In this document: piece after piece, positions 16,202 through 42,095 of the stretch | How positions within the stretch are numbered: position 1 is the first letter of the stretch | How the letters are laid out: each line of letters starts with the position of its first letter | IMG/VR virus record: IMGVR_UViG_3300045988_024923 | Span: 1-43,421 of that record | DNA from: a virus | Strand: one strand, 5' to 3' | Length of the DNA: 43,421 nt | The notes under the pieces: model-generated | Told to the model about the DNA's origin: nothing | What the model saw: only the letters and a program-made list of their open reading frames with translations | Database searches by the model: none | Translations under genes and position numbers: made by a program

Positions 16202-19200
16202 ATGGCGACAAAGCCTGTATTTCGGAAAGTCACAACTGCGGCGGAAAGCCAGAAAAAGAACAAGGAGGAGCGGGCAAATACTGCCCGTTCCTCTGATAAG
16301 CCGGTATTCAGAAAAGTAACGACTGCGTGGGGCGGGGATTTGTCTGATGTTAAGGCTCCAACCCAGACGCAAAAACCTACTGTGCGAGGCCCGGCGCGCA
16401 GCAACAGCACTACGCCCAGCCGCAAGCAGTGGAAGGCCACCAATGGCGGGAGAAAAAGCACTACGGATGCGGGGAAGAACAAACCATCTGCACAAAAAAA
16501 GTCCTTCTTTGAGATTGCCACGCAGAATAAGACTCCGGGCCGCGTTGCGGAAAATGCACAGCCCCGGCAGACTTCTTATGCTGGGCAGCTTGGACAGGTA
16601 AGTCGGAACGCGGCAGCTCCTAATAGCCGGTACGATGCCGGGAATTTGCGGACAGCCCAGAAACAGGAAGTTGCTGCGCCCAGCATCGGCAATGCCAGAA
16701 AACTCGACGAGCCGACCTTTATGGAGCGGATTGGCAAGACCGTCACGGGCGGGGCTAAGTCTTCGGCGGCGGCCTATACCAATGTGCGAGGATACATTCA
16801 GGAAGGCACGCACATGGCGCGGGATGTGGATGTGTCCGGGTGGAACCGGGACCTGAACCGCTATCAATACGAACTGAGAAACGCAGACAACGATGCAGAC
16901 AGGGCGTACTGGCAATCAGAAATCGACCGGGTGCGCCGGAATATTCAGAACGCTGGGAAAGCAACCGCCGAATCCAACGCATCCGCACAGAAAAATTACC
17001 GGCTGGCAGATGAAATTGCAGCCAATGCAGAAAAAGACCTGACCCGTGCAAAACAGGGTGCGGGGGCTGTGGGGCGGCTGCTGGTAGACGCGGGGGCGTC
17101 TATGACCCAGAGCGCCCTTGACGCAATCCCCAATCTTATTACTGGCGGCGCAACGGGCATGGTCCCGTTTGCGGCGCGGGCGTTCGGCGGAGCGGCCCAG
17201 CAGGCACGGCAGGACGGCGCTACGTGGGGACAGCAGGGCCTTTACGGCGCAGCATCTGCCGCGAAAGAGGTTTTCACCGAAAAGATGTTCAATATTGCGC
17301 TTCCTTTTGCCAAAGCATACGGCGGCGGTGCGTTGGACGATGTAGTGGAGCGCGGCATTCGCAGTGCGGTAGACAAGTTTGCCAAAACGGAAGTCGGTAA
17401 AAAGGCGCTTGGATCGGCGCTGACTTTTGGAGCCGGAGCGGTTGGCGAGGGCTTGGAGGAGTTCATCGGTGATTGGATGGAATGGCAGCTGCCCCGCATT
17501 TATGGCGGTGACGTAGCGACGGCGCAGGAAACGCTTTCCGATTCTCTGTATGACTTCCTGGTTGGAGCCACGTCCGGCGCGATGGGCGGGCTTGTCAGCC
17601 CCAATACATACCGGTACGATCTGGGCAACACACAGACCGCACAGCGTGGCGTACAGGAGCGCACAGACGTTCAGGAGGGTACACGTACCACCACCGTACA
17701 AACGAACGCACAGACCCAGCAGGAGAACGCGCAGATGGCCATTCAGGAAGCCGTTCAGCGACAGACTGCGAGTAATCCCGTTTCTGCGGAGGAACAGGTC
17801 TTGCGGCAGCGAGAAGCCGCCGTGCAGAAAACCTTTACCGGCATTGCAGACAAGCTGGGGGACAGCGGCAGGAAGGCGTTTCAGACGGCGTATCAGGGGA
17901 CGGACCGTGGTGACTACGCCGGGGAATTTCTGCGGGCGTATCACGCAGGCATGACCAACCAGAAGAACCCCAACAGCACCAGCGCGGTATCCTTTGCGGC
18001 GTATGCGGCAGGGCAGAATGACGCGGCAGCGTCTCTTGCAAGAGAGAAGCGGGCGGCGCAGTTTGCCAAGACCGCCGGAACGGACAGCGGCCTTGTGTTC
18101 GACGATTATGTTTCCCGTGAAATGGACAGTGCTGTTGCCGACGAGGTAAACACCGTGGCAAAGGCATTGGGCGTTCGGGTGCAGATGAAAGATCAGGTAC
18201 TGGGCGGGCAGGCCAACGGCCAGATCACCGGCAGCGACGTTCTGATTGCAAAGGACGCGGTGGACCCTGCTTTGCAGGTGGTCGGCCATGAGTGGACCCA
18301 CCGTGTACAGGAGTTGGCCCCGGAGCAGTACCGGGCGTTCCGGGACGCTGTTACCAGTATGCCGGACGTGCAGGAAGCGACGAACATCCTGCTTGACCAG
18401 TACAACCGGGCGGGTGTTGAAACCAGCTACGAACAGGCATTGGACGAGGCTACCGCCAACTATGCCGGTGAGATGATCGCGAACAGCGACGTGCTGGACG
18501 ATTTCATCCAGAAGCACAGCGCCGACCGGACGCTGCTGCAAAAGCTGCGGGACACCATCCATGAAATCGTGGGCAAGCTGACCGGCAGAGCCAAGCGGCA
18601 GGCCCAGACGGTGGAGGGCAAACTGCAGGCGGCATTTGAAGCGGCCAGCAAGCAGGCGGAAAGCTTGCAGAACCAGCAGACTGATGGTAGAATGCAGGAA
18701 ACGAGATATGCCGTAAAGGAGGGCATGGACGATGGACGAGAAAACGAAATTGGCAGCAGAACTGACACAGGCAGCCGAAAAGAATATGGGCAGAGCCTTG
18801 ACCGAGAAGGAAAAGGCCAAACTGGACGAGTTCGCGGAGAGTTTTCTGCTTCTGCTGGACGATACGGAGGAGTAAATCCGTCCTTTGGGGCCAAGCCGGT
18901 TCGCACTTGGGCCGAAAGGAACACAGTTGAACCGAGCAAGGGCAGTGTGGCCTACGAGGAGCAGCAGGCGGCGGTAAACTACGGCGTGCCTAGCTTTGTG
19001 GTGGCGGATGCAGCATGGGCCAAGAACAAAGGCAACACACCGGCGTTTTCCTCCGGCGGGCAAATCTTTTTCCGGGAGACATTGCCGGAACAGAACCGTG
19101 GAATGATTACGCCTCACGAAGTCACCCATGTGATGAAGCAGGTAGGCTACAAGCCCTATCTTGACTTTGTGGAGCGGACCCCAGAAATGCTGAATATGAG

Positions 19201-22200
19201 TGACCCGGTGACCCGCATATTATTGGATCATGTCGCGAAGCATCAGCGTACCACGATGGAGAACGCAGACCCGTTGCGACTGTATGATGAATTCAATGCA
19301 ACTATCTATGGACATATTGCAACGGGGCAAACGGAAATGTTTACAGATGGAATTGGCATCCATGTGTTTCATGACTTTGCGGCGTATGCCAAAGAACTGA
19401 ACGAACTGCATGAGCGGTTTAAGGCTGACAACCAGAAAAAGGCGAAAGAAAAAACCAGATATGCCCTGAAAGACTACAGCGATGCGGAACAGCGGGACCA
19501 CCGGAAAAAGGCAATCGCCTATTTTGGCAAGACCTACAACTGGAATGAAACCGGCTACCTCACCCCGGCAGGGACAAAGCTGGACTTCTCCGGGCGGCAC
19601 GAGGGCGGCCCCGGCGGATACCGGACAGTAGACCACCGGGACATCCGGGACGCCATCAGCGAGGATTACGGCGGGGATGATTATTCCGGCTCCATGGTGC
19701 AGTTCATGAGCGAGGGCAATATCCGCATTTCACCGGAAAGCGGCGGTATCAACCTTTCCGTGGAACCCACAAAATCCCAGATGGATGCACTGTCGGACTT
19801 TATCGGTAAAAACCGGGGCGAAGTCATTCTTGATCTGGACACCCCAGATGGGCAGACGGTTTCCAGCACGGAGTATCCCAGGGGGACCCATTCCAGCAAG
19901 GTGCTGAATGACATCAAAGCATATTTCAAAGATGGCACGAAGCCCCATGTTTCGGAATTGGCGCAGTTCCTATCGTTGAAAGGCACGGAAAACGCGCAGG
20001 AGATCGCGGCGCTGAAACGGGAAAACGAGAGCCTGAAAGAGCGGGTTGAGTATTGGAAGGGCCAGACCAGACGGTCTCAGGGCGTAACCACCGACCGGAA
20101 ATCCGTTCAGAAGGCGGCGGACGCACTGGTAAAGAACTACGGCGCGGAGATCAGCGGCAGCGACATTGCCGGAGACCTGCAAAGCCTGTATGACTACATT
20201 GCCAGCGGCAAGGATGGCAGGGACGAGCTGACCTATGCAGAGGCGCGGAGACGGTCTGATGCCATTGCGGAGCGGATCGCAGAAAGCGCCGTGGAGGTGG
20301 ATGACCGGGCATACAAGGAATACGCTGGTCTGCGAAAGTATCTGAAAGACACCAAGCTGACGCTGACGGAAGCGGATGCCGCCGAGATCACGGACTTCAA
20401 CGAGTTCCGCAAGAGCTTGTTCGGCAAGCTGAAAATCAGCAAGGGCGAACACACCAATGTTGATCAGATTTATTCCGAACTGTCCAGCCAGTACCCGGAG
20501 TTTTTCAACGAAGCGCAGGAGACCAACATTTCCGACCAGGTGCAGCGAATCGCGGACGTGGCGAACCGGCTGTACAAGGTGACGGAGTACAACCCCTTTG
20601 AAGGCTACATGGGACAGGCCGTGGCGTCTATCTCCAATGACATTATGGACCGGTTCTTTGACCTGCCTCAGGCGAAAAAGACCTTTGCGGACCGGGCAGC
20701 GGAGCAGGTGCAGGATGCCAGATTTCAGGGCAGACAGGCGGCAAATGACGCTTTTCTGGCAGGACAGATGGCACAGGGAAAGCAGGACGCAAAGCGGCTG
20801 CGGAGCACCGCACAGGCACTGTCGAAGGAACGTACCCGGCGGGCGGAGCAGGTGCAGACCCTGAAAGAGCGCTACCGGGAAAAGGACGTGACCCGGCGGG
20901 ACAGCCAGAAGCGGCGGGAGCTGCGGGCAAAGATCACTCGCCATGCCAGCGCATTGTCTCAAAAGCTGCTGCGGCCCACAGACACCCAGCATATTCCGGA
21001 GAAAATGCGCTCCGCCGTGGCAAAGGTGCTGGAAAGCATCAATCAGGAAAGCAGCCCCAATGCACGATCGTTTACACTGGATCCGGTGACGAAGGAGCGG
21101 ATTTACAGGGAAAAGGGCACACCCACCAACCGGACGGCGGCGTTTCAGAATCTGAAAGAGCAGTACCAGCAAATCGCCAAAGAAGGCGATATGGTAGTAG
21201 ACCCGTCTTTGCTGGGTGACGAGGACGTGCCCGGTGGATTCAGCGAGGTTATCAAGATGGGGGACACCCGCCTTGCAGACCTGACCACAGAGCAGCTGCA
21301 AACCATGTGGAACGTGCTGAAATCTGTGGAGCATTCCGTGACTACGGCAGGCAAGACGCTGGCGTCGGAGAAATTCGCGACCACCAAGCAGTTTGCCGAT
21401 GCGCTCCGCATGGACGGCATGACCCGGCGGCGAAAGTTGGGGAACAACGTGGCAATCAGCCTGGAAACGCCCTATACGTTCTTTGCCCACTTCGGGCAGA
21501 CCGGCAAGGACATTTACCGGATGCTGCGGAACGCTCAGGATCAACAGGAGATCATGGCGCGGGATGTGGCAGAAAAGGTGCAGAAGGTCTTGGGCGATAC
21601 CGAGAAAAAAGGCCTGCGGAGCAACGCCGTAACTGCCATGAACGAGGAAACCCACCATTTCACCACGGCGGAGGGCCAGGAACTGACGCTGACCACAGCA
21701 CAAGCTATGGATCTTTATCTGCTGAGTGAACGGAAACAGGCGGAGGATCATCTGCTGAAAGGCGGCATCGTGCAGCCGGAGATCAAGATCCCAGGCAAGG
21801 CCAAAATCCCCAGAGGAACGGACGTGATCCATCTTTCCGCAGAGGATATCCAGTCCATTGTGAAGGCTTTGACTCCGGAGCAGATCAGGATCGCGGATGG
21901 CTTGCAGAAGCTGACCACCGGCACGCTTGCCAACTACGGCAACGAGGCCAGCATGAAAGCCTACGGCTATAAGAAATTCACGGAGCAGGACTACTGGCCC
22001 ATTAAATCTGCAAAGGAAGTACTGCACAGCTCCCCGGAAAAGGATAGCGGGAATGTGCGCTCCATTAAGAATATCGGCATGGCGCAGGCGGTAAACCCCA
22101 AAGCGTCTAACGCATTGGAAGTCCGGAGTGTGTTCAGCACATTTTCAGACCATGCCTCCGATATGATCGACTACGCGGCGTGGCTGTGCCCCATGGAGGA

Positions 22201-24286
22201 CGCGAACCGGCTGTTTAACTACGAGTTTGAGGACGGTGAGGGAAACAAAACTGGTGCGACAGTCAAGGGCTTTTTGGATGAAAAAGGCGGGGAAGGCTCT
22301 CAAGATTACTGGCAAAAGCTGATGGGTGACATTCAGAACGGCATTAATGAAAAGAATTTTGAGCCATTCAGCAAAGTGATTGTAAAGAAAGCCTTTTCCA
22401 ATTACAAAGCATCCAGAGTACTGTTCAATTTGAGAGTAGCCGGTCAGCAGCCGTTCGCATGGTTCCGGGCAAGAGATGTCTTAAATCATGTTGATATGGT
22501 AAAAGGCTTGACCAGCGGCGTAACGAAGGGCAGCGGATGGGAAAAGGCTGTGAAGTATTCCCCCATTGCCATGCGGAAGGACACGGGCAGTTTCGACGTT
22601 ACCTCCCCGTACACCCTGAATGACCGCTTTTACGGGAAAGAGGGCTTTATCAACAAGGTGAATGAAGCGGGCGGCATACTTGCCGAGGCGGCGGACGCTT
22701 TCACATGGGGAAAACTGTGGAACGCCTGCGAGTGGCAGGTGAAGCGGGAGAGGCCCAATCTGCGGGCTGGCAGCGGCGAATTTTACAGCGCAGTCAATGA
22801 AGTGTTCACCAACATGATCGACCAGACGCAGGTGGTAGACGGCATTTTGCAGCGCTCCAATATCATGCGCTCCTCAGACAGACTTGACAAACTGGCAACT
22901 TCCTTCATGGGTGAACCCATTATGAGCCTGAATGTGTTTATGCGAAAATGGGATGCCCTGCGGTATGAGGAAGACCCTGTTAAGCGTAAAGCGGCCATGA
23001 AGGCGTTGAGCCGATCACTTGCGGTTCTGATTTCATCAGAGGTCGCGACAGCGGTCGTACAGAGCCTTTCAGACGCAAAGCGGGATGACGATGATGACAA
23101 GGACTACTGGGAAAAGTTCATAGAAGCAATGACCGGTATTACCGGGGATGAAGAAACCATGACAGAAATCCTGAAAAATGTTGTCTTCGAGGGGAACGTT
23201 GGGCAGAACCTAAATCCGATCAATAAACTCCCCTATTTGAAAGACATCAACTCCATGTGGCAGGGATATAAGGTTGTTCGGATGGATTTAGGCGTGTACC
23301 AGGACAATGTAAAAGCAAGCAAAGCGTTTATAGAATCTCTTAACGGGCAAGGTGTAAAAACTCGGCAAGATGCGCTAACTACGGCGCTTGGAGCCGCAGG
23401 GGAATTTTGGGGAATCGCCGGTTCCAACCTCAAACGGGAAATCTACTCCGCAATCGACACCATCTTTCAGGCGACCGGGAATGTGGCGCTGCAATATGAG
23501 TGGGACAAACTGACGTACAACATCTACAGCACGTCCAACAAAGACCGTTACATGGGACTGGCGTTCAAGGCGCTGGAACAGGGCGACTTGACCACTTATG
23601 AGCACATCCGCAAGGAACTGAAGGACTACATGGCAGTGGACAGCACCAGCGTGGACAGCGGGATGCGAAGCCGTCTTGAAAAGAAGCAGGAAAAGGACGG
23701 GGATTACCGTCTACCCCAGAACGCCGCAAGCCTAATTGGGGCAAAAGACAGCTACGATGACAGCGAGGGCGAGGACAAATTCACGGAAAACGATCTCAGC
23801 TCCGATGACTACATCGCATACAGCCGGAGAAAGTCCGAGCTTTACAGTTCCGTGGAATCCGGGCTGAAAGACAGCCAGACGTTCCAAAAGTTCACCGGGG
23901 AGCAGAAGGACAAGGCCCTGTCCAGCGCGGAGACCTACGCAAAAAAGACGGCGCTGCATGAGGTGGACAACACCTATGAAATTACCGACAAATGGATCTT
24001 GAAAGCGCAGGAGGCGCAGAAGAAGTATGGCATTGACCCGGCTGTCTATGTGGCGCTGAAAACGCAGGTTTCCGAGATTGAAAGCGTCAAGGATAGGAAC
24101 GGGGAGACCATTCCCAACAGCAAGGGGCTGCTTATCATGCAGGCGGTTTACAACACGCCGGGGCTGCATGAGAACCAGCGGAACGCACTGTTTGAGTATC
24201 TGGGGGTAGGCAAAAGCATCCGGCATTACAACAAGGCGCTTGTGAACGAGAAAGTCCGAAAGAACGCCCAGCTGGCCGGGAAATAA
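16202..24286 (+). CDS. Giant polyvalent virion protein (2694 aa) with two zincin-like HExxH motifs
   Basis: RBS AAGGAGG. HEWTH at 18287-18301 and HEVTH at 19115-19129. N-terminal peptide KPVFRKVTTA is duplicated. Long coiled-coil stretches. Confidence 0.7.
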   Translation: MATKPVFRKVTTAAESQKKNKEERANTARSSDKPVFRKVTTAWGGDLSDVKAPTQTQKPTVRGPARSNSTTPSRKQWKATNGGRKSTTDAGKNKPSAQKKSFFEIATQNKTPGRVAENAQPRQTSYAGQLGQVSRNAAAPNSRYDAGNLRTAQKQEVAAPSIGNARKLDEPTFMERIGKTVTGGAKSSAAAYTNVRGYIQEGTHMARDVDVSGWNRDLNRYQYELRNADNDADRAYWQSEIDRVRRNIQNAGKATAESNASAQKNYRLADEIAANAEKDLTRAKQGAGAVGRLLVDAGASMTQSALDAIPNLITGGATGMVPFAARAFGGAAQQARQDGATWGQQGLYGAASAAKEVFTEKMFNIALPFAKAYGGGALDDVVERGIRSAVDKFAKTEVGKKALGSALTFGAGAVGEGLEEFIGDWMEWQLPRIYGGDVATAQETLSDSLYDFLVGATSGAMGGLVSPNTYRYDLGNTQTAQRGVQERTDVQEGTRTTTVQTNAQTQQENAQMAIQEAVQRQTASNPVSAEEQVLRQREAAVQKTFTGIADKLGDSGRKAFQTAYQGTDRGDYAGEFLRAYHAGMTNQKNPNSTSAVSFAAYAAGQNDAAASLAREKRAAQFAKTAGTDSGLVFDDYVSREMDSAVADEVNTVAKALGVRVQMKDQVLGGQANGQITGSDVLIAKDAVDPALQVVGHEWTHRVQELAPEQYRAFRDAVTSMPDVQEATNILLDQYNRAGVETSYEQALDEATANYAGEMIANSDVLDDFIQKHSADRTLLQKLRDTIHEIVGKLTGRAKRQAQTVEGKLQAAFEAASKQAESLQNQQTDGRMQETRYAVKEGMDDGRENEIGSRTDTGSRKEYGQSLDREGKGQTGRVRGEFSASAGRYGGVNPSFGAKPVRTWAERNTVEPSKGSVAYEEQQAAVNYGVPSFVVADAAWAKNKGNTPAFSSGGQIFFRETLPEQNRGMITPHEVTHVMKQVGYKPYLDFVERTPEMLNMSDPVTRILLDHVAKHQRTTMENADPLRLYDEFNATIYGHIATGQTEMFTDGIGIHVFHDFAAYAKELNELHERFKADNQKKAKEKTRYALKDYSDAEQRDHRKKAIAYFGKTYNWNETGYLTPAGTKLDFSGRHEGGPGGYRTVDHRDIRDAISEDYGGDDYSGSMVQFMSEGNIRISPESGGINLSVEPTKSQMDALSDFIGKNRGEVILDLDTPDGQTVSSTEYPRGTHSSKVLNDIKAYFKDGTKPHVSELAQFLSLKGTENAQEIAALKRENESLKERVEYWKGQTRRSQGVTTDRKSVQKAADALVKNYGAEISGSDIAGDLQSLYDYIASGKDGRDELTYAEARRRSDAIAERIAESAVEVDDRAYKEYAGLRKYLKDTKLTLTEADAAEITDFNEFRKSLFGKLKISKGEHTNVDQIYSELSSQYPEFFNEAQETNISDQVQRIADVANRLYKVTEYNPFEGYMGQAVASISNDIMDRFFDLPQAKKTFADRAAEQVQDARFQGRQAANDAFLAGQMAQGKQDAKRLRSTAQALSKERTRRAEQVQTLKERYREKDVTRRDSQKRRELRAKITRHASALSQKLLRPTDTQHIPEKMRSAVAKVLESINQESSPNARSFTLDPVTKERIYREKGTPTNRTAAFQNLKEQYQQIAKEGDMVVDPSLLGDEDVPGGFSEVIKMGDTRLADLTTEQLQTMWNVLKSVEHSVTTAGKTLASEKFATTKQFADALRMDGMTRRRKLGNNVAISLETPYTFFAHFGQTGKDIYRMLRNAQDQQEIMARDVAEKVQKVLGDTEKKGLRSNAVTAMNEETHHFTTAEGQELTLTTAQAMDLYLLSERKQAEDHLLKGGIVQPEIKIPGKAKIPRGTDVIHLSAEDIQSIVKALTPEQIRIADGLQKLTTGTLANYGNEASMKAYGYKKFTEQDYWPIKSAKEVLHSSPEKDSGNVRSIKNIGMAQAVNPKASNALEVRSVFSTFSDHASDMIDYAAWLCPMEDANRLFNYEFEDGEGNKTGATVKGFLDEKGGEGSQDYWQKLMGDIQNGINEKNFEPFSKVIVKKAFSNYKASRVLFNLRVAGQQPFAWFRARDVLNHVDMVKGLTSGVTKGSGWEKAVKYSPIAMRKDTGSFDVTSPYTLNDRFYGKEGFINKVNEAGGILAEAADAFTWGKLWNACEWQVKRERPNLRAGSGEFYSAVNEVFTNMIDQTQVVDGILQRSNIMRSSDRLDKLATSFMGEPIMSLNVFMRKWDALRYEEDPVKRKAAMKALSRSLAVLISSEVATAVVQSLSDAKRDDDDDKDYWEKFIEAMTGITGDEETMTEILKNVVFEGNVGQNLNPINKLPYLKDINSMWQGYKVVRMDLGVYQDNVKASKAFIESLNGQGVKTRQDALTTALGAAGEFWGIAGSNLKREIYSAIDTIFQATGNVALQYEWDKLTYNIYSTSNKDRYMGLAFKALEQGDLTTYEHIRKELKDYMAVDSTSVDSGMRSRLEKKQEKDGDYRLPQNAASLIGAKDSYDDSEGEDKFTENDLSSDDYIAYSRRKSELYSSVESGLKDSQTFQKFTGEQKDKALSSAETYAKKTALHEVDNTYEITDKWILKAQEAQKKYGIDPAVYVALKTQVSEIESVKDRNGETIPNSKGLLIMQAVYNTPGLHENQRNALFEYLGVGKSIRHYNKALVNEKVRKNAQLAGK

Positions 24287-27242: not shown

Positions 27243-28274
27243 TTATTCCCCCGTCTGTAATTTCATCTGTAATTCTTGCTCAAAATAGCGGTCGAGATCG
27301 TCGGCAACCTGCTTTGATTTCTTACTCATGGTATGCTGATATACATTTTTCAGCATATTATTTGTGGCGTGGCCCATGCGCTCCATGGCGTATTTATCCG
27401 GGACATTCTGTTCCAGCATGACCGAAGCATTCACGTGGCGGAGATCGTGGAACCGGAAGGGGGCGATATTATTTCGGGCACAGGCGCGGCGGAGGTGGTT
27501 ATACATGGCGTTGCGGGTATAGTGGACAATAAACTGGTCCGTTTTCGGGGCGGCATCCAGCAAGCCTTTGATATATGGCGGGATTTGCAGACGCCGATTG
27601 CCGCTGTATGTTTTCGGCTGCTTTAACTCAGGCCCGTTTTCACCTTCAACGAGTGCTTGCTTGATGATAAGCGTATTCCCATCAATGCAATCCCATGTCA
27701 GGCCGCGAATCTCCGATGTTCTCAGGCCAAGCCAGACGGCCAGCAGAAACGGCAGCTCAAATTGTTTCCCACGGCAATCCTCATGCAGTGTCCGGATCTG
27801 GTCCATGGTGGGGATTTGGATTTTTGGAGCTTCCTTCTGTGGCAGCGTAATGCGGAATATCCGATCTGGGAAATATTCTGCCATTGCTGCGGTGAACAAC
27901 CCGTAGGCATTGCGGACGTATTTAGGCGATTTGGAGCGAGCCATTTTATTAACGGCCCGTTGTACACGCTCTTGCGAAATGCTATCCGCTGGATCATCCA
28001 TGATTTCCTGGAAAACGGATTTGCGGAGCTTTTTATACCCATTGATCGTAGTAGGGGATAGAACGGTATCTTTGCTGGAAATGTATCTATCGATTACTTC
28101 TCCAACGGTGAACTTTGTTTTTATCTTGGCGGCTTTGGCACCAGACTTGATGGCGGCAGCTTCATTTTCAGCTTCTCGCTTGGTCGGAGCCGTGATGGAG
28201 AGACGCTTCCCGTCTATCATGATGTTGATATACCATGAGCCGGACGGCAGCTTTACTGCCTTTGGTATCTTCAT
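27243..28274 (-). CDS. int: Tyrosine integrase
   Basis: 343 aa. C-terminal catalytic pattern LRTSEIRGL ... FRFHDLRHV ... MGHATNNMLKNVYQHT. Confidence 0.95.
   Translation of the reverse strand: MKIPKAVKLPSGSWYINIMIDGKRLSITAPTKREAENEAAAIKSGAKAAKIKTKFTVGEVIDRYISSKDTVLSPTTINGYKKLRKSVFQEIMDDPADSISQERVQRAVNKMARSKSPKYVRNAYGLFTAAMAEYFPDRIFRITLPQKEAPKIQIPTMDQIRTLHEDCRGKQFELPFLLAVWLGLRTSEIRGLTWDCIDGNTLIIKQALVEGENGPELKQPKTYSGNRRLQIPPYIKGLLDAAPKTDQFIVHYTRNAMYNHLRRACARNNIAPFRFHDLRHVNASVMLEQNVPDKYAMERMGHATNNMLKNVYQHTMSKKSKQVADDLDRYFEQELQMKLQTGE
27252..27274 (-). repeat. Two more copies of the (C/G)TCTGTAATT repeat inside the integrase 3' end
   Basis: Direct observation. Confidence 0.5.
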
Positions 28275-28275
28275 A

Positions 28276-28710
28276 TTATTCCCTCCAAAAACCGATATTC
28301 AAAGCGTGCATATCCACAAATACGCACCAGCACAACAGCAGGCCGATTGCTATGCCCATAATCAAAATCACGCAGTTCCGAATCCGCAGACCCTTTTCCA
28401 GGACGTGAATGGTATAGTTTTGCAGGCCGATGGTCTGCCGCTTATTTTCAAGGCGGTGTTCCAGCCCATCCTTTTCCGCCTGTAAGGTTTCTTCCGTGGC
28501 GGTACAGTGATCGCCAATACCAAAAAATGCGTCCAAAGACACCCCCAGCGCCGCACAGATACCAGCTGTGGTATAAAGAGCCGGGGATTTGGACGCATGG
28601 GCGAAGAAATTATTAACGGTGGAGAGGGGGATGTTTGAAGCATCGGCAATGTCCTGGGCCGTCATGCCCAGCGCGTTCTTTTTTTCTCTGCATAATTCCT
28701 GAATCGTCAA
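28276..28710 (-). CDS. Membrane-anchored XRE-family HTH protein, translationally coupled to int
   Basis: TTG 28710 lies 6 nt after AGGAGGGGG (alternative ATG 28740). HTH segment GMTAQDIADASNIPLSTVNNF. C-terminal TM segment CVILIMGIAIGLLLCWCVFV. Confidence 0.65.
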   Translation of the reverse strand: MTIQELCREKKNALGMTAQDIADASNIPLSTVNNFFAHASKSPALYTTAGICAALGVSLDAFFGIGDHCTATEETLQAEKDGLEHRLENKRQTIGLQNYTIHVLEKGLRIRNCVILIMGIAIGLLLCWCVFVDMHALNIGFWRE

Positions 28711-28929
28711 AAAAATACCCCCTCCTGCATAATCAGGCATGATATGGACAGGCAGAGTACCAATTTTGGTTTTGTAACAATTTGTCGGATGGTGTCGAAT
28801 ACCCAAATTTGAAAATTGCTCTACCTACCCTGTTTCTGTTACGGTTACATCACGGCAAGCCGATGCCCCCGGCTTGCTGCCCCCGGCTCCGCCGCTTGTT
28901 GCAGAGGCGGCGGGGCAGGGGGAGTGAAA

Positions 28930-29847
28930 TCAATCCCAGCATCCGGAATGCTTTGGGTAACCAAGCCATTCACAATACTCTACATTGTGTGCATAGAAGC
29001 CATCTGACGCACAATCCTCAAAGGGAAACTGAGAGCAATTATAGCTATGGCAATATTTGGACCCATCATAAATAAAGCCGATGTATGTTTTCATCGCAAA
29101 GGCTTCTGGGGCAATTTCATCAATCATATTGTCCCTAACATTGATGTCATCCTGTGCATCTGCGAGTTGTTTTTGCAAAGTTGAACGGGATTCTTTAAGA
29201 TTCTGAATCAATGTATCCTTATCAGCTAAGTCTTCTTCTATCTTAGCTAATTGAGTTTGCGTATTGACCTTCAAGTAAGCCTGCACGGCGTTTCCCGCAA
29301 GGCTGGCAATACAAATCGCGGCCAACACCACAAAGAGAACGTTATTTCGCTTGGACGGCTTCGGCTGGGATGGTGGCTCCGAGGGAACAGAATCATCAAC
29401 AATCGGTTTTGGTGGGCCGGACAATTTGAAATCTGGGGCATAAGTCAGCACAACAGGCTTCGGCTCTTCAACGGGCGTTTCACTGATAACCTCGCCGGTG
29501 GCATCGTCCACAACAAACTGCTTCATTTGGGCTTCCTGCTGGATGTAGGTTTCGGAGGGAATGGCTTTTGCCCGCTGATCAAAATTCTTTTTATTGATCC
29601 GATAGAAAACAGTTCCCCATATAATGGCCGGGGTAAAACTTCCAACTTGTCTTAGCCCAAGCAAAGACATGATGATATTAAAGGTGAAAGAAACTATAAT
29701 CGTGTAGATGATATGAAACCACTTTAGCTTTTTGGGAGATATTGGCCCCTTATGAAATTCTAAAAGGAGAATTGGTCCTAATCCGTAGGCGATGACAGTA
29801 ACAAGAAAATCAGCTAAAAACGATGTAATAAATTTCCCTGCATCCAT
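28930..29847 (-). CDS. Low-GC multi-pass membrane protein with coiled coil and C-terminal Cys/His domain (moron candidate)
   Basis: 305 aa: three N-terminal TM segments, a Pro-rich linker, a fourth TM, a coiled coil, and a C-terminal KYCHSYNC...C...C segment. Hand-counted GC in 29101-29220 is about 39%. Confidence 0.7.
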   Translation of the reverse strand: MDAGKFITSFLADFLVTVIAYGLGPILLLEFHKGPISPKKLKWFHIIYTIIVSFTFNIIMSLLGLRQVGSFTPAIIWGTVFYRINKKNFDQRAKAIPSETYIQQEAQMKQFVVDDATGEVISETPVEEPKPVVLTYAPDFKLSGPPKPIVDDSVPSEPPSQPKPSKRNNVLFVVLAAICIASLAGNAVQAYLKVNTQTQLAKIEEDLADKDTLIQNLKESRSTLQKQLADAQDDINVRDNMIDEIAPEAFAMKTYIGFIYDGSKYCHSYNCSQFPFEDCASDGFYAHNVEYCEWLGYPKHSGCWD

Positions 29848-29889
29848 TTATATCCCCCCGCACAACTTTTAGCTTCTAATAAATTCTGG

Positions 29890-29918
29890 TTGCAATCTCA
29901 AAACAGAAGTACTATACT
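29890..29918 (+). promoter_or_regulatory. Sigma-70-type promoter (TTGCAA, 17 nt spacer, TATACT)
   Basis: -35 at 29890-29895 and -10 at 29913-29918. Confidence 0.65.
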
Positions 29919-29963
29919 CAAAACATGAATCGAACGAATGTACGAACGAAAGGAGCGCGGAAC

Positions 29964-30125
29964 ATGGACGAGGAAAGGATCAGGCAGTTGCTCACGCTAT
30001 ACCGGCAGTTGACGCCGGAGGAGCAACTTACATATCTTGAACGGCTCCGCGCTTCGCTGCCTGCGCTAAATACGCAAGCTCTTCCTGCTGACGCTCCGGC
30101 GAAAGCTGGCGGAACAAATCAATAA
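29964..30125 (+). CDS. Small ORF (53 aa; 66 aa if leaderless from ATG 29925) convergent with and overlapping the repressor 3' end
   Basis: SD AAAGGAG lies 8 nt upstream. The ORF has its own promoter and terminator. Its peptide LYRQLTPEEQLTYL resembles the repressor tail. Confidence 0.55.
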   Translation: MDEERIRQLLTLYRQLTPEEQLTYLERLRASLPALNTQALPADAPAKAGGTNQ

Positions 30126-30375
30126 GCAGTTTTTCGTTCACGCTCTCGGCCTGCGGGCCGGGGGCGTTTTCTTTTTCCCCGGTGAGAACCCGCTCCACCG
30201 ACACGCCGAAGTAATCGGCTATTTTTTTTGCGGTTTCGGCGTTAATGCTTTTCGTTCGCCCTGCTTTCAGCCCAGTCATTAGGCTTTTGCTGGTTCCAAT
30301 GTCTAAGCACATTTTACCGCCGCTGACCTTATGTTCATCACAAAGGGCCTTGATATTTTCATACAAAGTTGCCAA
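30028..30375 (-). CDS. CI-like XRE-family repressor
   Basis: TTG 30375 lies 5 nt after GGAGGTG. HTH segment GGKMCLDIGTSKSLMTGLKAG. Divergent from the early genes. Confidence 0.75.
   Translation of the reverse strand: MATLYENIKALCDEHKVSGGKMCLDIGTSKSLMTGLKAGRTKSINAETAKKIADYFGVSVERVLTGEKENAPGPQAESVNEKLLIDLFRQLSPERQQEELAYLAQAAKRGAVQDM
30141..30176 (+). terminator. Rho-independent terminator located inside the repressor gene on the opposite strand
   Basis: 11-bp stem 30141-30151/30156-30166 (two G-U pairs), loop TGCG, followed directly by TTTTCTTTTT. Confidence 0.7.
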
Positions 30376-30432
30376 TATTGCACCTCCATTTTTGGGCACA
30401 ACGGAAAAAGTGCAAAATTTAGCATTTACCTC

Positions 30433-30461
30433 TTGCAAAGTGCGGAATTACGCACTATACT
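30433..30461 (+). promoter_or_regulatory. Rightward promoter (TTGCAA, 17 nt spacer, TATACT)
   Basis: -35 at 30433-30438 and -10 at 30456-30461. Confidence 0.65.
30439..30456. promoter_or_regulatory. Operator candidate: palindrome AGTGCG-GAATTA-CGCACT in the promoter spacer
   Basis: Perfect 6-bp arms. Related GTGCA/TGCAC half-sites occur at 30410, 30484 and 30520. Confidence 0.5.
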
Positions 30462-30513
30462 AAACGCATGAGGTACGAAAAATTGCACGTCATGTAACTT
30501 TTAACCTAATTAC

Positions 30514-30541
30514 ATTATAGTGCATTTTTTCGAACTGTCAA
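30514..30541 (-). promoter_or_regulatory. Leftward consensus promoter (TTGACA, 16 nt spacer, TATAAT) facing the rightward promoter
   Basis: Read on the minus strand: -35 at 30541-30536 and -10 at 30519-30514. Confidence 0.65.
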
Positions 30542-30565
30542 GGACTTTTGCGAAAGGAGGACGGG

Positions 30566-30874
30566 ATGGACGAACGAATTGAGTGGGGACCTCGCAAGCG
30601 GTACGCATACGAAGCAGCCAAGCAGACAGGGCTTTGCGGAGACAACGCAAAGGACGCCGCACGGTTTCAGCTTTTCTGGCAGGTGTATCTGGATATGTCC
30701 AGTGACTTTGAAGCCGCGCAGCAGATTTACACACTGTCACTGCTTGATGATGAGCGTGAGAAGCGAGCTGATGACTGCGCTTACTATCGAAAGAACAATC
30801 GTTATAATGCGATCCTTCTTACGCTCTGCTTTCTCATTGGCGCGGCGGGCGGCATCATCGCGCGCCTGCTGTAA
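30566..30874 (+). CDS. Hypothetical protein with C-terminal TM tail
   Basis: RBS AAAGGAGG. 102 aa ending in the TM segment AILLTLCFLIGAAGGIIARLL. Confidence 0.6.
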   Translation: MDERIEWGPRKRYAYEAAKQTGLCGDNAKDAARFQLFWQVYLDMSSDFEAAQQIYTLSLLDDEREKRADDCAYYRKNNRYNAILLTLCFLIGAAGGIIARLL

Positions 30875-31078
30875 GGCTTCGGTTCCCTTTGGGGTGAGCT
30901 TATAGCAGCCAGAGGATGCGGACAGAAGCCCGGAGCCTGACAGGTACATCAGCAGATGGCGGGACAGCGTTAAATCGTAAGTTTTCTGCAGGGCGGACAG
31001 GATATCTGTTTCTGCGGAGCGTGGGTGCGCGGCGATGTATTCCAGTATGGTATGGGCGTGATCGGAAACTGTGGTCAT
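30737..31078 (-). CDS. Winged-helix (MarR-like) protein with C-terminal TM tail, overlapping the 30566 gene by 138 nt
   Basis: RBS AAAGGAGGG 5 nt before ATG 31078. wHTH-like segment ILEYIAAHPRSAETDILSAL...YKLTPKG. TM segment IITIVLSIVSAVISSLLTLII. Confidence 0.6.
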   Translation of the reverse strand: MTTVSDHAHTILEYIAAHPRSAETDILSALQKTYDLTLSRHLLMYLSGSGLLSASSGCYKLTPKGTEALQQARDDAARRANEKAERKKDRIITIVLSIVSAVISSLLTLIIKQ

Positions 31079-31147: not shown

Positions 31148-31345
31148 GTGTTTTACGAGCACATGAAGGCAGTATGCAAGAAAAAGCACACCAGCCCGTC
31201 GGCGGTGTGTCTGGCGCTGGGGATGAGCAAGAGCAACGTGACCAACTGGAAGAACGGCGGATGGCCCCGGTTGGACGTGGTGATGGAAATGGCGAAGGTG
31301 CTGAACGTTCCTCCGGCACGGCTGATCCCGAAGGAGGACAAATGA
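31148..31345 (+). CDS. Cro-like XRE HTH protein
   Basis: GTG start 8 nt after AAAGGAGA. HTH segment SPSAVCLALGMSKSNVTNWKNG. Confidence 0.75.
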   Translation: MFYEHMKAVCKKKHTSPSAVCLALGMSKSNVTNWKNGGWPRLDVVMEMAKVLNVPPARLIPKEDK

Positions 31346-41559: not shown

Positions 41560-42095
41560 CTCCAACCCCGGCGGACGCCGGGAATATGCAGACGTAGCTC
41601 AGTCGGCAGAGCACCGCGCCGGGAGGTATGCGCAGGTTCAAGTCCTGCCGTCTGCACCAGATGTATGCTACCGCATTGCGGCACCGTGGAAGGGTAAGAC
41701 CGCTACAAGGGGCTTGCCTGTGCGCTGTATGAAAGCGGCAGGGCGAAGAATTTATTATTTAGCTGGACCCGGCTTGTGTAAAAGAAACGGATGCGACCGA
41801 CATACCGGCGCAGGGCTGAAAAGTTCCGTGGTTAGCGCGTACAGAACCATGCAGAGCGAACTCCGAGGCGTGTTCATCGAAAGGTATGCGGAAGTGGTGA
41901 GGTAACGGCTGCCCTTGGGCAAGGCCGTTGTGTAGGGTAGTATGCTTGCCCGGTTCTGTACGGCTAATTGTGTAAGCAACTCAAATGGAAAGAATAATGC
42001 CCAATGTGGGCGGCGTTGTAGCCCTTCGGGGCGGGTAAAGTCTGCTATGTAAGGCCAAGGGGTGGGGGCTGGTAGCAAAATAATGTTAAGAGGTT
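41560..42095 (+). ncRNA. Candidate large structured non-coding RNA (includes the tRNA-like element)
   Basis: Longest non-coding stretch in the genome. C(UUCG)G hairpin 42021-42032, CUUG hairpin 41904-41929, triloop hairpin 41999-42011 and an 11-bp long-range helix 41838-41848/41952-41962. No credible ORF. Confidence 0.5.
41588..41659 (+). ncRNA. tRNA-like element or pseudo-tRNA: intact acceptor, D and T arms and CCA, with a defective anticodon arm
   Basis: Acceptor GCAGACG/CGTCTGC, D arm GCTC-AGTCGGCA-GAGC, T arm GCAGG-TTCAAGT-CCTGC, then A-CCA. Only 18 nt (41614-41631) sit where 21-22 are needed, and no 5-bp stem with a 7-nt loop can be drawn. Confidence 0.55.

What the first reader, a model, noticed from the sequence alone, without database searches (positions are those of the whole stretch)
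29890..30176. Self-contained antisense unit (promoter, small ORF, terminator) overlapping the 3' end of the repressor gene; the peptide mimics the repressor tail
- The promoter is near-consensus: TTGCAA, 17 nt spacer, TATACT (29890-29918).
- It is followed by ATG 29925 at the expected transcription start, which would allow leaderless translation, and an in-frame SD-led ATG at 29964.
- The ORF ends at 30125. A strong terminator follows (11-bp stem 30141-30166 plus TTTTCTTTTT) and lies inside the convergent repressor gene (30028-30375, minus strand).
- The roughly 250-nt transcript is therefore antisense to about 150 nt of the repressor mRNA, and the two coding sequences overlap by 98 nt.
- The small protein carries LLTLYRQLTPEEQLTYL. 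The repressor C-terminus carries LIDLFRQLSPERQQEELAYL.
- Two non-exclusive roles are possible. One is an antisense RNA acting on the repressor message, in the style of lambda OOP or P22 sar. The other is a stand-alone copy of the repressor C-terminal helix acting as a dominant-negative anti-repressor.
Basis: partly seen in the sequence, partly recalled or inferred. Interest (0 to 1): 0.7.

Follow-up and report, generated by a model that had tools for sequence, protein, structure and literature searches.

The report
Small tail-mimic anti-repressor gene
A temperate gut phage carries a tiny gene facing the end of its repressor gene; its product copies the repressor's pairing helices and is probably switched on by DNA damage to disable the repressor, a strategy recently shown in Bacillus phages and here found as a new, unannotated example.

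Summary
The promoter-like site, SD-led ORF, hairpin plus T-run and 98-nt overlap with the XRE repressor gene are all at the stated coordinates.

Related phage contigs show the unit is real:
- The -35 and -10 hexamers are kept while the spacer diverges.
- The non-overlapping 21 codons are under strong purifying selection (pN/pS 0.05).
- The terminator is invariant.

The peptide resembles its own repressor's C-terminal helix-turn-helix. The same holds across 17 unrelated tail families, each with its own convergent small ORF (0 of 20,000 permutations reach the observed score).

It is imperfect here and canonical in several sister families.

Best reading: an SOS-controlled small anti-repressor that heterodimerises with the repressor tail. 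This resembles SinI/SinR and AimX/AimC (Kabel 2025 preprint), but without arbitrium. An antisense-RNA role is possible and probably secondary. Leaderless translation from 29925 is not supported.

No binding, expression or multimer evidence could be obtained. It is a new member of a known kind, and it appears widespread and modular in gut Clostridia phages.

The parts
29890..29918 (+). Sigma-70-type promoter of the small gene (TTGCAA, 17 nt, TATACT); predicted start near 29925
   Evidence: Found by the scan. In 15 related loci the hexamers TTG(C/A)A(A/T) and TAT(A/G)CT and the 17-nt spacing are kept, while the spacer and upstream DNA diverge into 3-4 variants, one with a TGn extended -10.
29931..29944 (+). 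LexA (Cheo) box-like operator CGAACGAATGTACG in the 5' leader, one mismatch to CGAAC-N4-GTTCG
   Evidence: Found. The leader is nearly invariant in all relatives. In L006 a spacer base changes while both half-sites are kept. Canonical GAAC-N4-GTT(C/T) boxes sit at the same place (between the -10 and the SD) in 7 of 17 sister families, binomial P about 2e-8. The Firmicutes/Clostridium LexA consensus is taken from PMC4234289.
29950..29955 (+). Shine-Dalgarno AAGGAG, 8 nt before ATG 29964
   Evidence: Read from the sequence; conserved in all relatives.
29964..30125 (+). Small ORF of 53 aa (MDEERIRQLLTLYRQLTPEEQLTYLERLRASL...): the predicted anti-repressor. The functional part is the N-terminal helix-turn-helix, roughly 29964-30080
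   Evidence: Listed as an ORF. Homologues are called as genes in other assemblies. For codons 1-21, pN/pS is 0.05 against L006 and 0.39 against allele B, and the other frames are closed or unconstrained. The AF2 model gives helix, turn (QLT), helix, with pLDDT about 91 in the core and a disordered C-terminus.
30028..30375 (-). Repressor gene, 115 aa: XRE-type HTH, flexible linker, C-terminal two-helix tail. It has no S24 peptidase domain
   Evidence: Pfam HTH_26 and PHROG transcriptional regulator/repressor families. The AF2 model shows five helices at residues 3-64, a disordered linker at 65-77, helix 78-88, an SPE turn, and helix 92-112. SinR (1b0n_A) is the best natural full-length match by fold and by profile (E=0.013).
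30037..30141 (-). Coding region of the repressor's C-terminal helix-turn-helix tail, the presumed dimerisation element and the target of the mimic
   Evidence: Located. Codon-position identity to the small ORF's motif is 8, 15 and 7 of 17 for positions 1, 2 and 3, so the likeness is at the protein level and not an RNA or DNA palindrome.
30140..30177 (+). Intrinsic terminator-like hairpin plus TTTTCTTTTT on the small-gene strand, embedded in the linker-coding part of the repressor gene
   Evidence: Found (dG -24.9). It is invariant in relatives, and the T-run is kept even where the linker peptide differs. An equivalent element is present in 17 of 17 sister families, in 0 of 17 on the sense strand, and in 0.9% of shuffles. 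It is also present in family members without a small ORF.
30002..30112 (.). Imperfect inverted repeat (arms 30002-30020 and 30094-30112) that reflects the two copies of the RQL(T/S)PE motif encoded on opposite strands
   Evidence: Reported as pair I4 (79% complementary); interpreted.

Best explanation
The unit encodes a small anti-repressor that is probably under SOS control.

In the lysogen, host LexA is proposed to sit on the CGAACGAATGTACG box just downstream of the promoter and keep the gene silent. After DNA damage LexA is cleaved. A transcript of about 250 nt then runs from about 29925 to the terminator in the repressor's linker-coding region. From it, the 53-aa protein is translated from the SD-led ATG at 29964.

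The protein's N-terminal helix-turn-helix copies the repressor's own C-terminal two-helix tail. It is proposed to pair with that tail in place of a second repressor subunit. This would leave HTH monomers that no longer hold the operators at 30374-30531, so the early promoter (30433-30461) fires and the prophage is induced.

The repressor has no autocleavage domain and no neighbouring ImmA protease, so such a factor is needed to couple it to SOS.

Shown by computation:
- the ORF is under selection;
- the promoter, the box and the terminator are conserved;
- the peptide resembles its own repressor's tail;
- both are predicted as helical hairpins.

Inferred:
- LexA binding;
- heterodimer formation;
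- loss of DNA binding;
- induction.

The antisense overlap is most simply a consequence of packing the gene against the repressor gene, with the terminator placed in the first stretch of coding sequence that tolerates it. It may add some interference.
For: - Coding: for codons 1-21, 12 synonymous against 2 non-synonymous steps compared with L006 (pS 0.89, pN 0.04). The ratio is 0.39 against allele B. The other frames are closed or at 1.75.
- Expression signals: the hexamers, the spacing and the SD are conserved while neighbouring DNA diverges, and the unit keeps its place next to unrelated downstream genes.
- LexA: the box lies at +7 to +20. Its half-sites are kept while a spacer base varies. 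Canonical boxes occupy the same position in L087, L089, L094 (a perfect CGAACAATCGTTCG), L095 and L097, and GTTT-type boxes in L092 and L096. Enrichment is 7 of 17 strict and 9 of 17 loose, P about 1e-8. The consensus is from PMC4234289.
- Mimicry: pairwise E=5e-5. Across 17 tail families the summed cognate score is 562 against 433 +/- 26 in permutations, with 0 of 20,000 reaching it, and 7 families are individually at z>4. A profile of the small ORFs against a profile of the tails gives hhalign E=2.6e-5 over 31 columns.
- Allele co-variation: RQL(S/T)PE occurs in both partners of allele A, and (K/H)LPP(D/E) in both partners of allele B.
- Structure: the repressor is HTH, disordered linker, then two helices; the small protein is two helices with the turn at the same motif. 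SinR from the SinR-SinI complex is the top natural full-length match, and AimC 9iaq_A also aligns over its full length.
- Precedent: in Bacillus phages the small AimX ORF is convergent with, and overlaps, the short HTH repressor gene aimC. In phi106 it has a LexA site just upstream. AimX forms an AimC-AimX heterodimer and abolishes DNA binding.
- Context: a temperate phage with integrase, a short repressor without an S24 domain, and no ImmA.
Against: - The window's own box has GTAC where the consensus has GTTC or GTTT. One-mismatch boxes are not rarer than chance window-wide (2 found, 1.36 expected).
- 8 of the 17 sister families show no LexA-like box.
- Neither the small protein nor the tail matches Pfam SinI or any other Pfam family. 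A PDB profile search does not retrieve SinI.
- A profile of the small ORF against 1.84 billion proteins finds only 7 relatives and no repressor tails at library-wide significance. The likeness is therefore significant only in direct comparisons.
- Allele B's likeness to its own tail is weak (z=2.3).
- The 17 families are not fully independent.
- The fold matches are weak: no Foldseek hit reaches E<=1e-3.
- No multimer model could be run.
- No transcript or protein data exist.
- The direction of the effect (antagonist rather than partner) is inferred from the LexA box and from analogy.
Confidence: 0.65

Rival explanations
1. The RNA is the effector. A terminated antisense transcript of about 250 nt pairs with the last roughly 148 nt of the repressor message, or collides with its transcription, and lowers repressor synthesis, in the manner of lambda OOP or P22 sar. 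On this reading the ORF is secondary.
For: - The geometry fits.
- An antisense-only terminator in the linker-coding region occurs in 17 of 17 families and never on the sense strand.
- No minus-strand terminator was found between the repressor stop and the next gene, so the duplex would lie inside a longer lysogenic message.
- Lambda OOP is a terminated antisense RNA to the 3' end of cII (own knowledge).
Against: - Strong purifying selection acts on the peptide, specifically in the part that does not overlap the repressor gene.
- The peptide's likeness to the tail has no RNA explanation: codon position 2 is conserved while positions 1 and 3 are not.
- In some sister families the small ORF ends before the repressor gene (L080, L095, L052).
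- In the closest tested systems, recoded aimX still worked and a stop-codon allele that kept the transcript did not.
- The terminator is also present where no convergent small gene is seen.
Confidence: 0.12
2. The peptide binds the tail but is not an inducer. It could be a partner that tunes or stabilises repressor oligomers, it could set immunity specificity, or it could act on another host or phage regulator with a similar tail.
For: - The mimicry shows only likely binding, not its sign.
- About half of the families lack a LexA box.
- Tail A is shared by at least 8 different HTH domains, so the peptide could act on several regulators.
Against: - Where a regulator site is recognisable, it is the SOS operator, which points to expression at induction.
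- The two experimentally characterised small proteins that engage a repressor's oligomerisation domain (SinI, AimX) are antagonists.
- The repressor otherwise has no link to SOS.
Confidence: 0.13
3. The unit is a non-functional relic: an inverted partial duplication of the repressor's 3' end that happens to be open, next to chance promoter-like and terminator-like sequences.
For: - The promoter match is only 9 of 12, and such sites are common.
- The hairpin is a family-wide feature independent of the ORF.
- The sequence family of the small ORF is small.
Against: - pN/pS is 0.05.
- The ORF, the SD and the promoter hexamers are retained in two alleles that are about 50% identical and in 17 unrelated tail families.
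- A LexA box recurs at the same position.
Confidence: 0.03

Closest known systems
AimX-AimC of extended arbitrium loci in Bacillus phages (phi106, W23, BMBtp14, Wbeta, Waukesha92; Kabel et al., bioRxiv 10.1101/2025.11.23.689978; PDB 9IAQ)
   Same: - A small ORF (29-80 aa) is convergent with, and sometimes overlaps, the 3' end of a short, non-cleavable HTH repressor gene.
- In phi106 a LexA site lies just upstream of the ORF.
- The repressor is built as HTH, unstructured linker, then a helical C-terminal oligomerisation domain.
- The small helical protein occupies the partner's place on that domain.
- The small protein diverges together with its repressor.
   Different: - No AimR or AimP is present here. 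The DNA upstream of the small gene is occupied by minus-strand genes.
- The host is a gut Clostridia member, not Bacillus.
- No sequence similarity was detected. The AimC tail has a beta-hairpin that is not predicted here.
- Here the small protein is recognisably similar in sequence to the tail.
- Here the transcript is predicted to stop in the linker. In some Bacillus phages the aimX transcript covers all of aimC.
SinI-SinR (and SlrA-SlrR) of Bacillus subtilis
   Same: - The repressor is an XRE HTH domain followed by a C-terminal pair of helices used for multimerisation.
- The antagonist is a small protein homologous to those helices and forms a heterodimer that cannot bind DNA.
- SinR is the best natural full-length match to the window's repressor, both by fold and by profile.
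   Different: - No match to Pfam SinI.
- According to PMC3163267, sinI is transcribed under Spo0A control rather than LexA. From my own knowledge, sinI lies upstream of sinR in the same orientation and is chromosomal.
- The system controls biofilm formation, not a prophage.
LexA-controlled phage anti-repressors: Tum of coliphage 186, the Gifsy anti-repressors, AntC of N15 (own knowledge; the principle is also stated)
   Same: A non-cleavable repressor is coupled to SOS through a small anti-repressor gene whose promoter is repressed by host LexA.
   Different: - These are unrelated proteins of Gram-negative phages.
- They are not copies of the repressor's own oligomerisation element.
- Their genes are not convergent with or overlapping the repressor gene.
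Lambda OOP RNA and P22 sar RNA (own knowledge)
   Same: A short, terminated transcript is antisense to part of a regulatory gene in the immunity region.
   Different: OOP and sar are non-coding. Here the transcript carries a peptide under strong purifying selection, and the RNA effect is untested.
ImmR-ImmA type modules (repressor plus metalloprotease), for example in Flavonifractor phages Castelnaud and Chenonceau
   Same: They use the same HTH repressor family and carry the same antisense hairpin plus T-run in the linker-coding region.
   Different: Anti-repression there is presumably by a co-transcribed HEXXH protease. The window has no such gene.

Membership tests
AimX-AimC (extended arbitrium module) | aimR and aimP lie immediately upstream of the small ORF, in the same direction | tested here: not met
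   The DNA upstream of 29890 carries only minus-strand genes: a membrane protein (28930-29847), an HTH-TM protein and the integrase.
AimX-AimC (extended arbitrium module) | A small ORF convergent with a short HTH repressor that lacks an autocleavage domain, followed by a divergent early (cro-like) operon | tested here: met
   The repressor is 115 aa and has only an HTH domain. Early genes, including a 65-aa HTH protein at 31148-31345, are on the plus strand.
AimX-AimC (extended arbitrium module) | Sequence or fold homology to AimC or AimX | tested here: inconclusive
   Foldseek aligns AimC 9iaq_A over 110 columns, but only at rank 39 with E=0.1. It does not appear in the sequence profile search.
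AimX-AimC (extended arbitrium module) | The small protein binds the repressor's C-terminal domain and blocks oligomerisation and DNA binding | not testable with these tools
Only sequence mimicry and matching helix-turn-helix predictions are available.
SinI/SinR | Match to the SinI domain (Pfam PF08671) in both the antagonist and the repressor C-terminus | tested here: not met
   There was no SinI hit at E<=1 for the small ORF, the repressor or nine other small ORFs. SinI was not retrieved from the PDB with the small-ORF or tail profiles.
SinI/SinR | The repressor is an XRE HTH followed by a C-terminal two-helix multimerisation element | tested here: met
   Shown by the AF2 model. SinR 1b0n_A is matched over its full length by Foldseek (E=2.5e-3) and by profile (E=0.013, query 8-108 against chain 6-106). 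The statistics are marginal.
SinI/SinR | The antagonist is homologous to the repressor's multimerisation helices | tested here: met
   Pairwise E=5e-5, z=5.6, cognate permutation 0 of 20,000, and hhalign E=2.6e-5.
LexA-controlled anti-repressor | A LexA operator overlaps or lies just downstream of the anti-repressor's promoter | tested here: inconclusive
   In the window, CGAACGAATGTACG has one mismatch in a half-site and is not significant window-wide. In its favour, it is invariant in relatives, and canonical boxes occupy the same position in sister families.
LexA-controlled anti-repressor | Damage-inducible expression and induction of the prophage | not testable with these tools
   No expression data are available.
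cis-antisense RNA regulators (OOP, sar) | A discrete promoter and terminator give a short transcript complementary to the target message | tested here: met
   These are sequence signals only.
cis-antisense RNA regulators (OOP, sar) | The transcript is non-coding and acts through pairing | tested here: not met
   The transcript carries an ORF with pN/pS 0.05. Rfam has no match in the region. The pairing effect itself was not testable.

The most novel reading that the evidence does not exclude
Gut Clostridia phages carry a widespread, undescribed induction cassette with four parts: a repressor tail, a convergent mimic that arose by inverted duplication of that tail, a LexA-box promoter, and a one-way terminator written into the linker codons.

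The cassette recombines at the hairpin independently of the DNA-binding domain. Induction-specificity groups are therefore decoupled from immunity groups: tail A sits on at least 8 HTH types, and one HTH type carries at least 4 tails. One phage's mimic could then induce, or fail to induce, co-resident prophages according to their tail type.

In this reading the embedded antisense terminator and the overlap are functional parts of the switch, not just a by-product of compact packing.
Probability: 0.3. Interest if true: 0.7.

Novelty: new member of a known kind. Interest (0 to 1): 0.5.

Why it matters
- Most short XRE repressors of gut Firmicutes phages have no autocleavage domain, and how they sense DNA damage is largely unannotated.
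- This locus, with at least 17 sister families, offers a concrete and testable answer: an unannotated peptide of 40-56 aa, absent from Pfam and PHROGs, that copies the repressor's pairing helices and is apparently under LexA.
- It extends a mechanism just shown for Bacillus arbitrium phages to phages without arbitrium in another bacterial class.
- It gives a simple recipe for finding such genes: a convergent SD-led small ORF after the repressor stop, a Cheo box, and a hairpin in the linker.
- It suggests that induction specificity (the tail) and immunity specificity (the HTH) are shuffled separately. This bears on cross-induction between prophages in polylysogens and on engineering inducible gut prophages.

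Tried and rejected
- DNA search of 29500-30900 against deposited phage genomes found no match. A protein search found only distant HTH relatives, and the cultured ones (Flavonifractor phages) use a metalloprotease instead of a small ORF.
- Rfam had nothing in the region.
- Pfam and PHROGs had no family for the small ORF. A weak AbbA hit (E=0.054) was dismissed as chance.
- Single-sequence PDB searches gave only designed helical repeats. The small-ORF profile hits protein A domains through a shared helix-capping motif, which is not homology.
- A profile search of 1.84 billion proteins found only 7 relatives and no repressor tails.
- The most distant relative (P0132, locus L124) is not next to a tailed repressor within the DNA held and was uninformative.
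- Leaderless start at 29925: rejected as the main start.
- The idea that the likeness between peptide and tail is a by-product of an RNA or DNA palindrome: rejected on codon-position identities.
- The transcript fold, z=-2.7 against mononucleotide shuffles, is dominated by the terminator and adds little.
- I considered a -1 frameshift signal (A-run plus hairpin on the sense strand of the linker). It was dropped because the A-run is not a consistent slippery heptamer and the spacing is wrong. It was not tested further.

Full report
**What is in the window.**
The window is a temperate phage genome of about 43 kb.
- Structural genes, including the portal, lie on the plus strand.
- A lysogeny block lies on the minus strand: integrase 27243-28274, an HTH protein with a membrane anchor 28276-28806, a membrane protein 28930-29847, and the repressor 30028-30375.
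- Early genes lie on the plus strand from 30566.

- TTGCAA, 17 nt, TATACT at 29890-29918.
- ATG at 29925.
- AAGGAG, then ATG at 29964.
- Stop at 30125.
- A 12-pair hairpin at 30140-30167 followed by TTTTCTTTTT, inside the repressor gene.

The two coding sequences overlap by 98 nt. The promoter match alone (9 of 12) is not remarkable: 11 such sites occur in 4 kb against 4.1 expected.

**Is the unit real?**
Homologues of the small ORF are called as genes in other assemblies. I aligned 15 related loci from metagenomic and viral contigs and found the following.
- The two promoter hexamers and their 17-nt spacing are kept, while the spacer and the upstream DNA fall into three or four unrelated variants. 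One variant has gained a TGn extended -10.
- The gene next to the unit differs between loci, but the unit keeps its place.
- The 39-nt leader and the hairpin are almost invariant.
- The T-run survives even where a different DNA-binding domain changes the encoded linker peptide from EKEN to KKD.

The body of the small ORF and the repressor tail occur as two alleles about 50% identical, here called A and B. These are combined freely with at least four HTH types in these contigs.

**Is it coding, and from which start?**
I compared the window with a diverged allele-A relative (L006).
- The 21 codons between ATG 29964 and the repressor stop carry 14 differences: 12 synonymous and 2 non-synonymous steps (pS 0.89, pN 0.04, ratio 0.05). 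The other two frames contain stops.
- Against allele B the ratio is 0.39, compared with 1.75 in the one other open frame.
- The 39 nt upstream, which would be the first 13 codons of a leaderless protein, give 0.64. Some gene callers elsewhere start at the SD-led ATG.
- The overlapping C-terminal third of the small ORF shows no constraint of its own (ratio 1.21) and is predicted to be disordered.

The product is therefore a 53-aa protein whose functional part is its N-terminal 30-40 residues.

**The mimicry.**
- The peptide aligns to its own repressor's tail at E=5e-5 in a pairwise comparison.
- Identity by codon position is 8, 15 and 7 of 17. The likeness is therefore at the amino-acid level and not a by-product of a nucleic-acid palindrome.
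- AlphaFold models give the repressor as a five-helix HTH, a disordered linker, then helix, SPE turn, helix. They give the small protein as helix, LTP turn, helix, with pLDDT about 91 in the core.

The wider repressor family is highly modular.
- Tail A is joined to at least eight different HTH domains, and the window's HTH to at least four different tails.
- In 80 viral loci I found 17 distinct tail families, each with its own convergent, SD-led small ORF of 35-56 aa. These start 58-167 nt beyond the repressor stop. An eighteenth family has its small ORF further out.
- These small ORFs resemble their own tails more than other tails: the summed cognate score is 562 against 433 +/- 26, with 0 of 20,000 permutations reaching it. 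Seven families are individually at z>4.
- A profile of all the small ORFs matches a profile of all the tails (hhalign E=2.6e-5, 31 columns).

Caveats:
- The families are not all independent.
- Allele B is individually weak.
- A library-wide profile search does not connect the small ORF to tails.

The invariant leader contains CGAACGAATGTACG (29931-29944). This is one mismatch from the Firmicutes LexA operator GAAC-N4-GTTC/GTTT.
- In the window alone this is not significant: 2 one-mismatch sites against 1.36 expected.
- In L006 a spacer base changes while both half-sites stay.
- In sister families, canonical boxes sit at the same place, between the -10 and the SD. These are GAACATAAGTTC, GAACAGATGTTC, CGAACAATCGTTCG, GAACTGTTGTTC and GAACCTCTGTTC, plus GTTT-type boxes.
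- Seven of 17 families have a strict box within 80 nt upstream of the small ORF start, against a background chance of 0.02 per family (P about 2e-8).

The repressor has no S24 domain and no ImmA neighbour. A LexA-controlled anti-repressor would supply the missing link to SOS.

**The terminator.**
An antisense-only hairpin (dG -13 to -25) plus T-run lies in the linker-coding region, 119-149 nt from the repressor's 3' end.
- It is present in all 17 families, in none on the sense strand, and in 0.9% of shuffles.
- The stems co-vary with quite different linker peptides, so the hairpin itself is under selection.
- The same element is also present in family members that have no convergent small ORF, including those followed by an ImmA-like protease such as the Flavonifractor phages Castelnaud and Chenonceau.

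It therefore fits as the terminator of this unit, but it is a family-wide feature and not proof of the unit. It also coincides with the junction where HTH and tail modules are exchanged. Its role in ImmA-type loci is unexplained.

**Comparison with known systems.**
- A 2025 preprint on Bacillus arbitrium phages describes the closest case. AimX is a 29-80 aa protein encoded convergent to the short HTH repressor gene aimC, and its ORF often overlaps that gene. In phi106 it has a LexA site just upstream. It forms an AimC-AimX heterodimer through AimC's C-terminal oligomerisation domain and abolishes DNA binding. Recoded and stop-codon alleles showed that the antisense RNA does not matter. The authors liken it to SinI/SinR.
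- Here, SinR is the best natural full-length match to the repressor, by fold (E=2.5e-3) and by profile (E=0.013). AimC also aligns over its full length, though weakly.
- There is no AimR or AimP, no Pfam SinI match and no detectable sequence relation.
- I found no paper describing this arrangement in Clostridia or gut phages.

**Verdict.**
- The best-supported mechanism is an SOS-triggered small anti-repressor that mimics the repressor's dimerisation hairpin (confidence about 0.65).
- An antisense contribution is possible but probably accessory (about 0.12 as the main mechanism).
- It works like AimX and SinI but is not a sequence member of either family. I class it as a new member of a known kind, of moderate interest. 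The interest comes from its apparent breadth and modularity in gut phages and from the unexplained linker-embedded terminator.
- Binding, LexA control and the direction of the effect remain inferences. A multimer model could not be run.

Noticed in passing
window 30140-30177; also L125 and L126 (Flavonifractor phages) and most of L044-L123: The antisense-only hairpin plus T-run in the linker codons is a family-wide feature of this repressor family. It is present even where the repressor is followed by an ImmA-like protease and no convergent small ORF is seen. The stems co-vary with different linker peptides. What it terminates in those loci is unknown. It also marks the junction where HTH and tail modules are swapped.
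   Followed up: partly
window 30433-30461 (+) and 30541-30514 (-): The immunity region has face-to-face promoters: the early promoter TTGCAA-17-TATACT and a perfect TTGACA-16-TATAAT pointing towards the repressor gene. Their transcripts would overlap by about 40 nt, which recalls pR/pL of coliphage 186.
   Followed up: no
window 30374-30531: Repeated GTGCA(A/T)/TTGCAC-type half-sites occur here, including the palindrome AGTGCGGAATTACGCACT (30439-30456) inside the early promoter's spacer. These are likely repressor operators. None lies near the small gene's promoter.
   Followed up: partly
window 29911-29928 and 30454-30471: The small gene's promoter and the early promoter share TTGCAA, a 17-nt spacer, ACTATACT and a downstream CATGA (83% identity over 18 nt). 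This could reflect a duplication or a shared requirement.
   Followed up: no
window 29931-29950; L006: The leader holds a direct repeat, CGAACGAA twice, 12 nt apart. In L006 both copies read CGAACAAA, which is a concerted change not explained by a single palindromic LexA site.
   Followed up: no
window 28276-28806 (-); L124 1278-1880: A second XRE-type HTH protein with a C-terminal membrane helix lies between the integrase and a membrane protein. A homologue lies next to a serine recombinase in another contig that also carries a distant relative of the small ORF.
   Followed up: no
proteins P0009-P0128 (relatives of window 30028-30375): There is extreme domain shuffling. An identical tail A is found on at least 8 different HTH domains, and the window's HTH on at least 4 different tails. 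The same HTH family uses at least three partner solutions: a convergent mimic, an ImmA-like protease, or a same-strand protein of 107-129 aa with unknown function.
   Followed up: partly
L052 and L076 (about 445-600 nt beyond the repressor stop): In one tail family the mimic-like small ORF (MQRLYQDAKANADNITAEDRAFLEAIQD...) lies further downstream. It is followed by a small membrane-protein ORF on the same strand, which suggests a two-gene convergent operon.
   Followed up: no
window 41588-41656: A tRNA gene lies in the late part of the early region (Rfam, 52 bits).
   Followed up: no
window 16202-24286: A single ORF of 2694 aa lies in the structural region, presumably a tail or tape-measure-type protein.
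   Followed up: no
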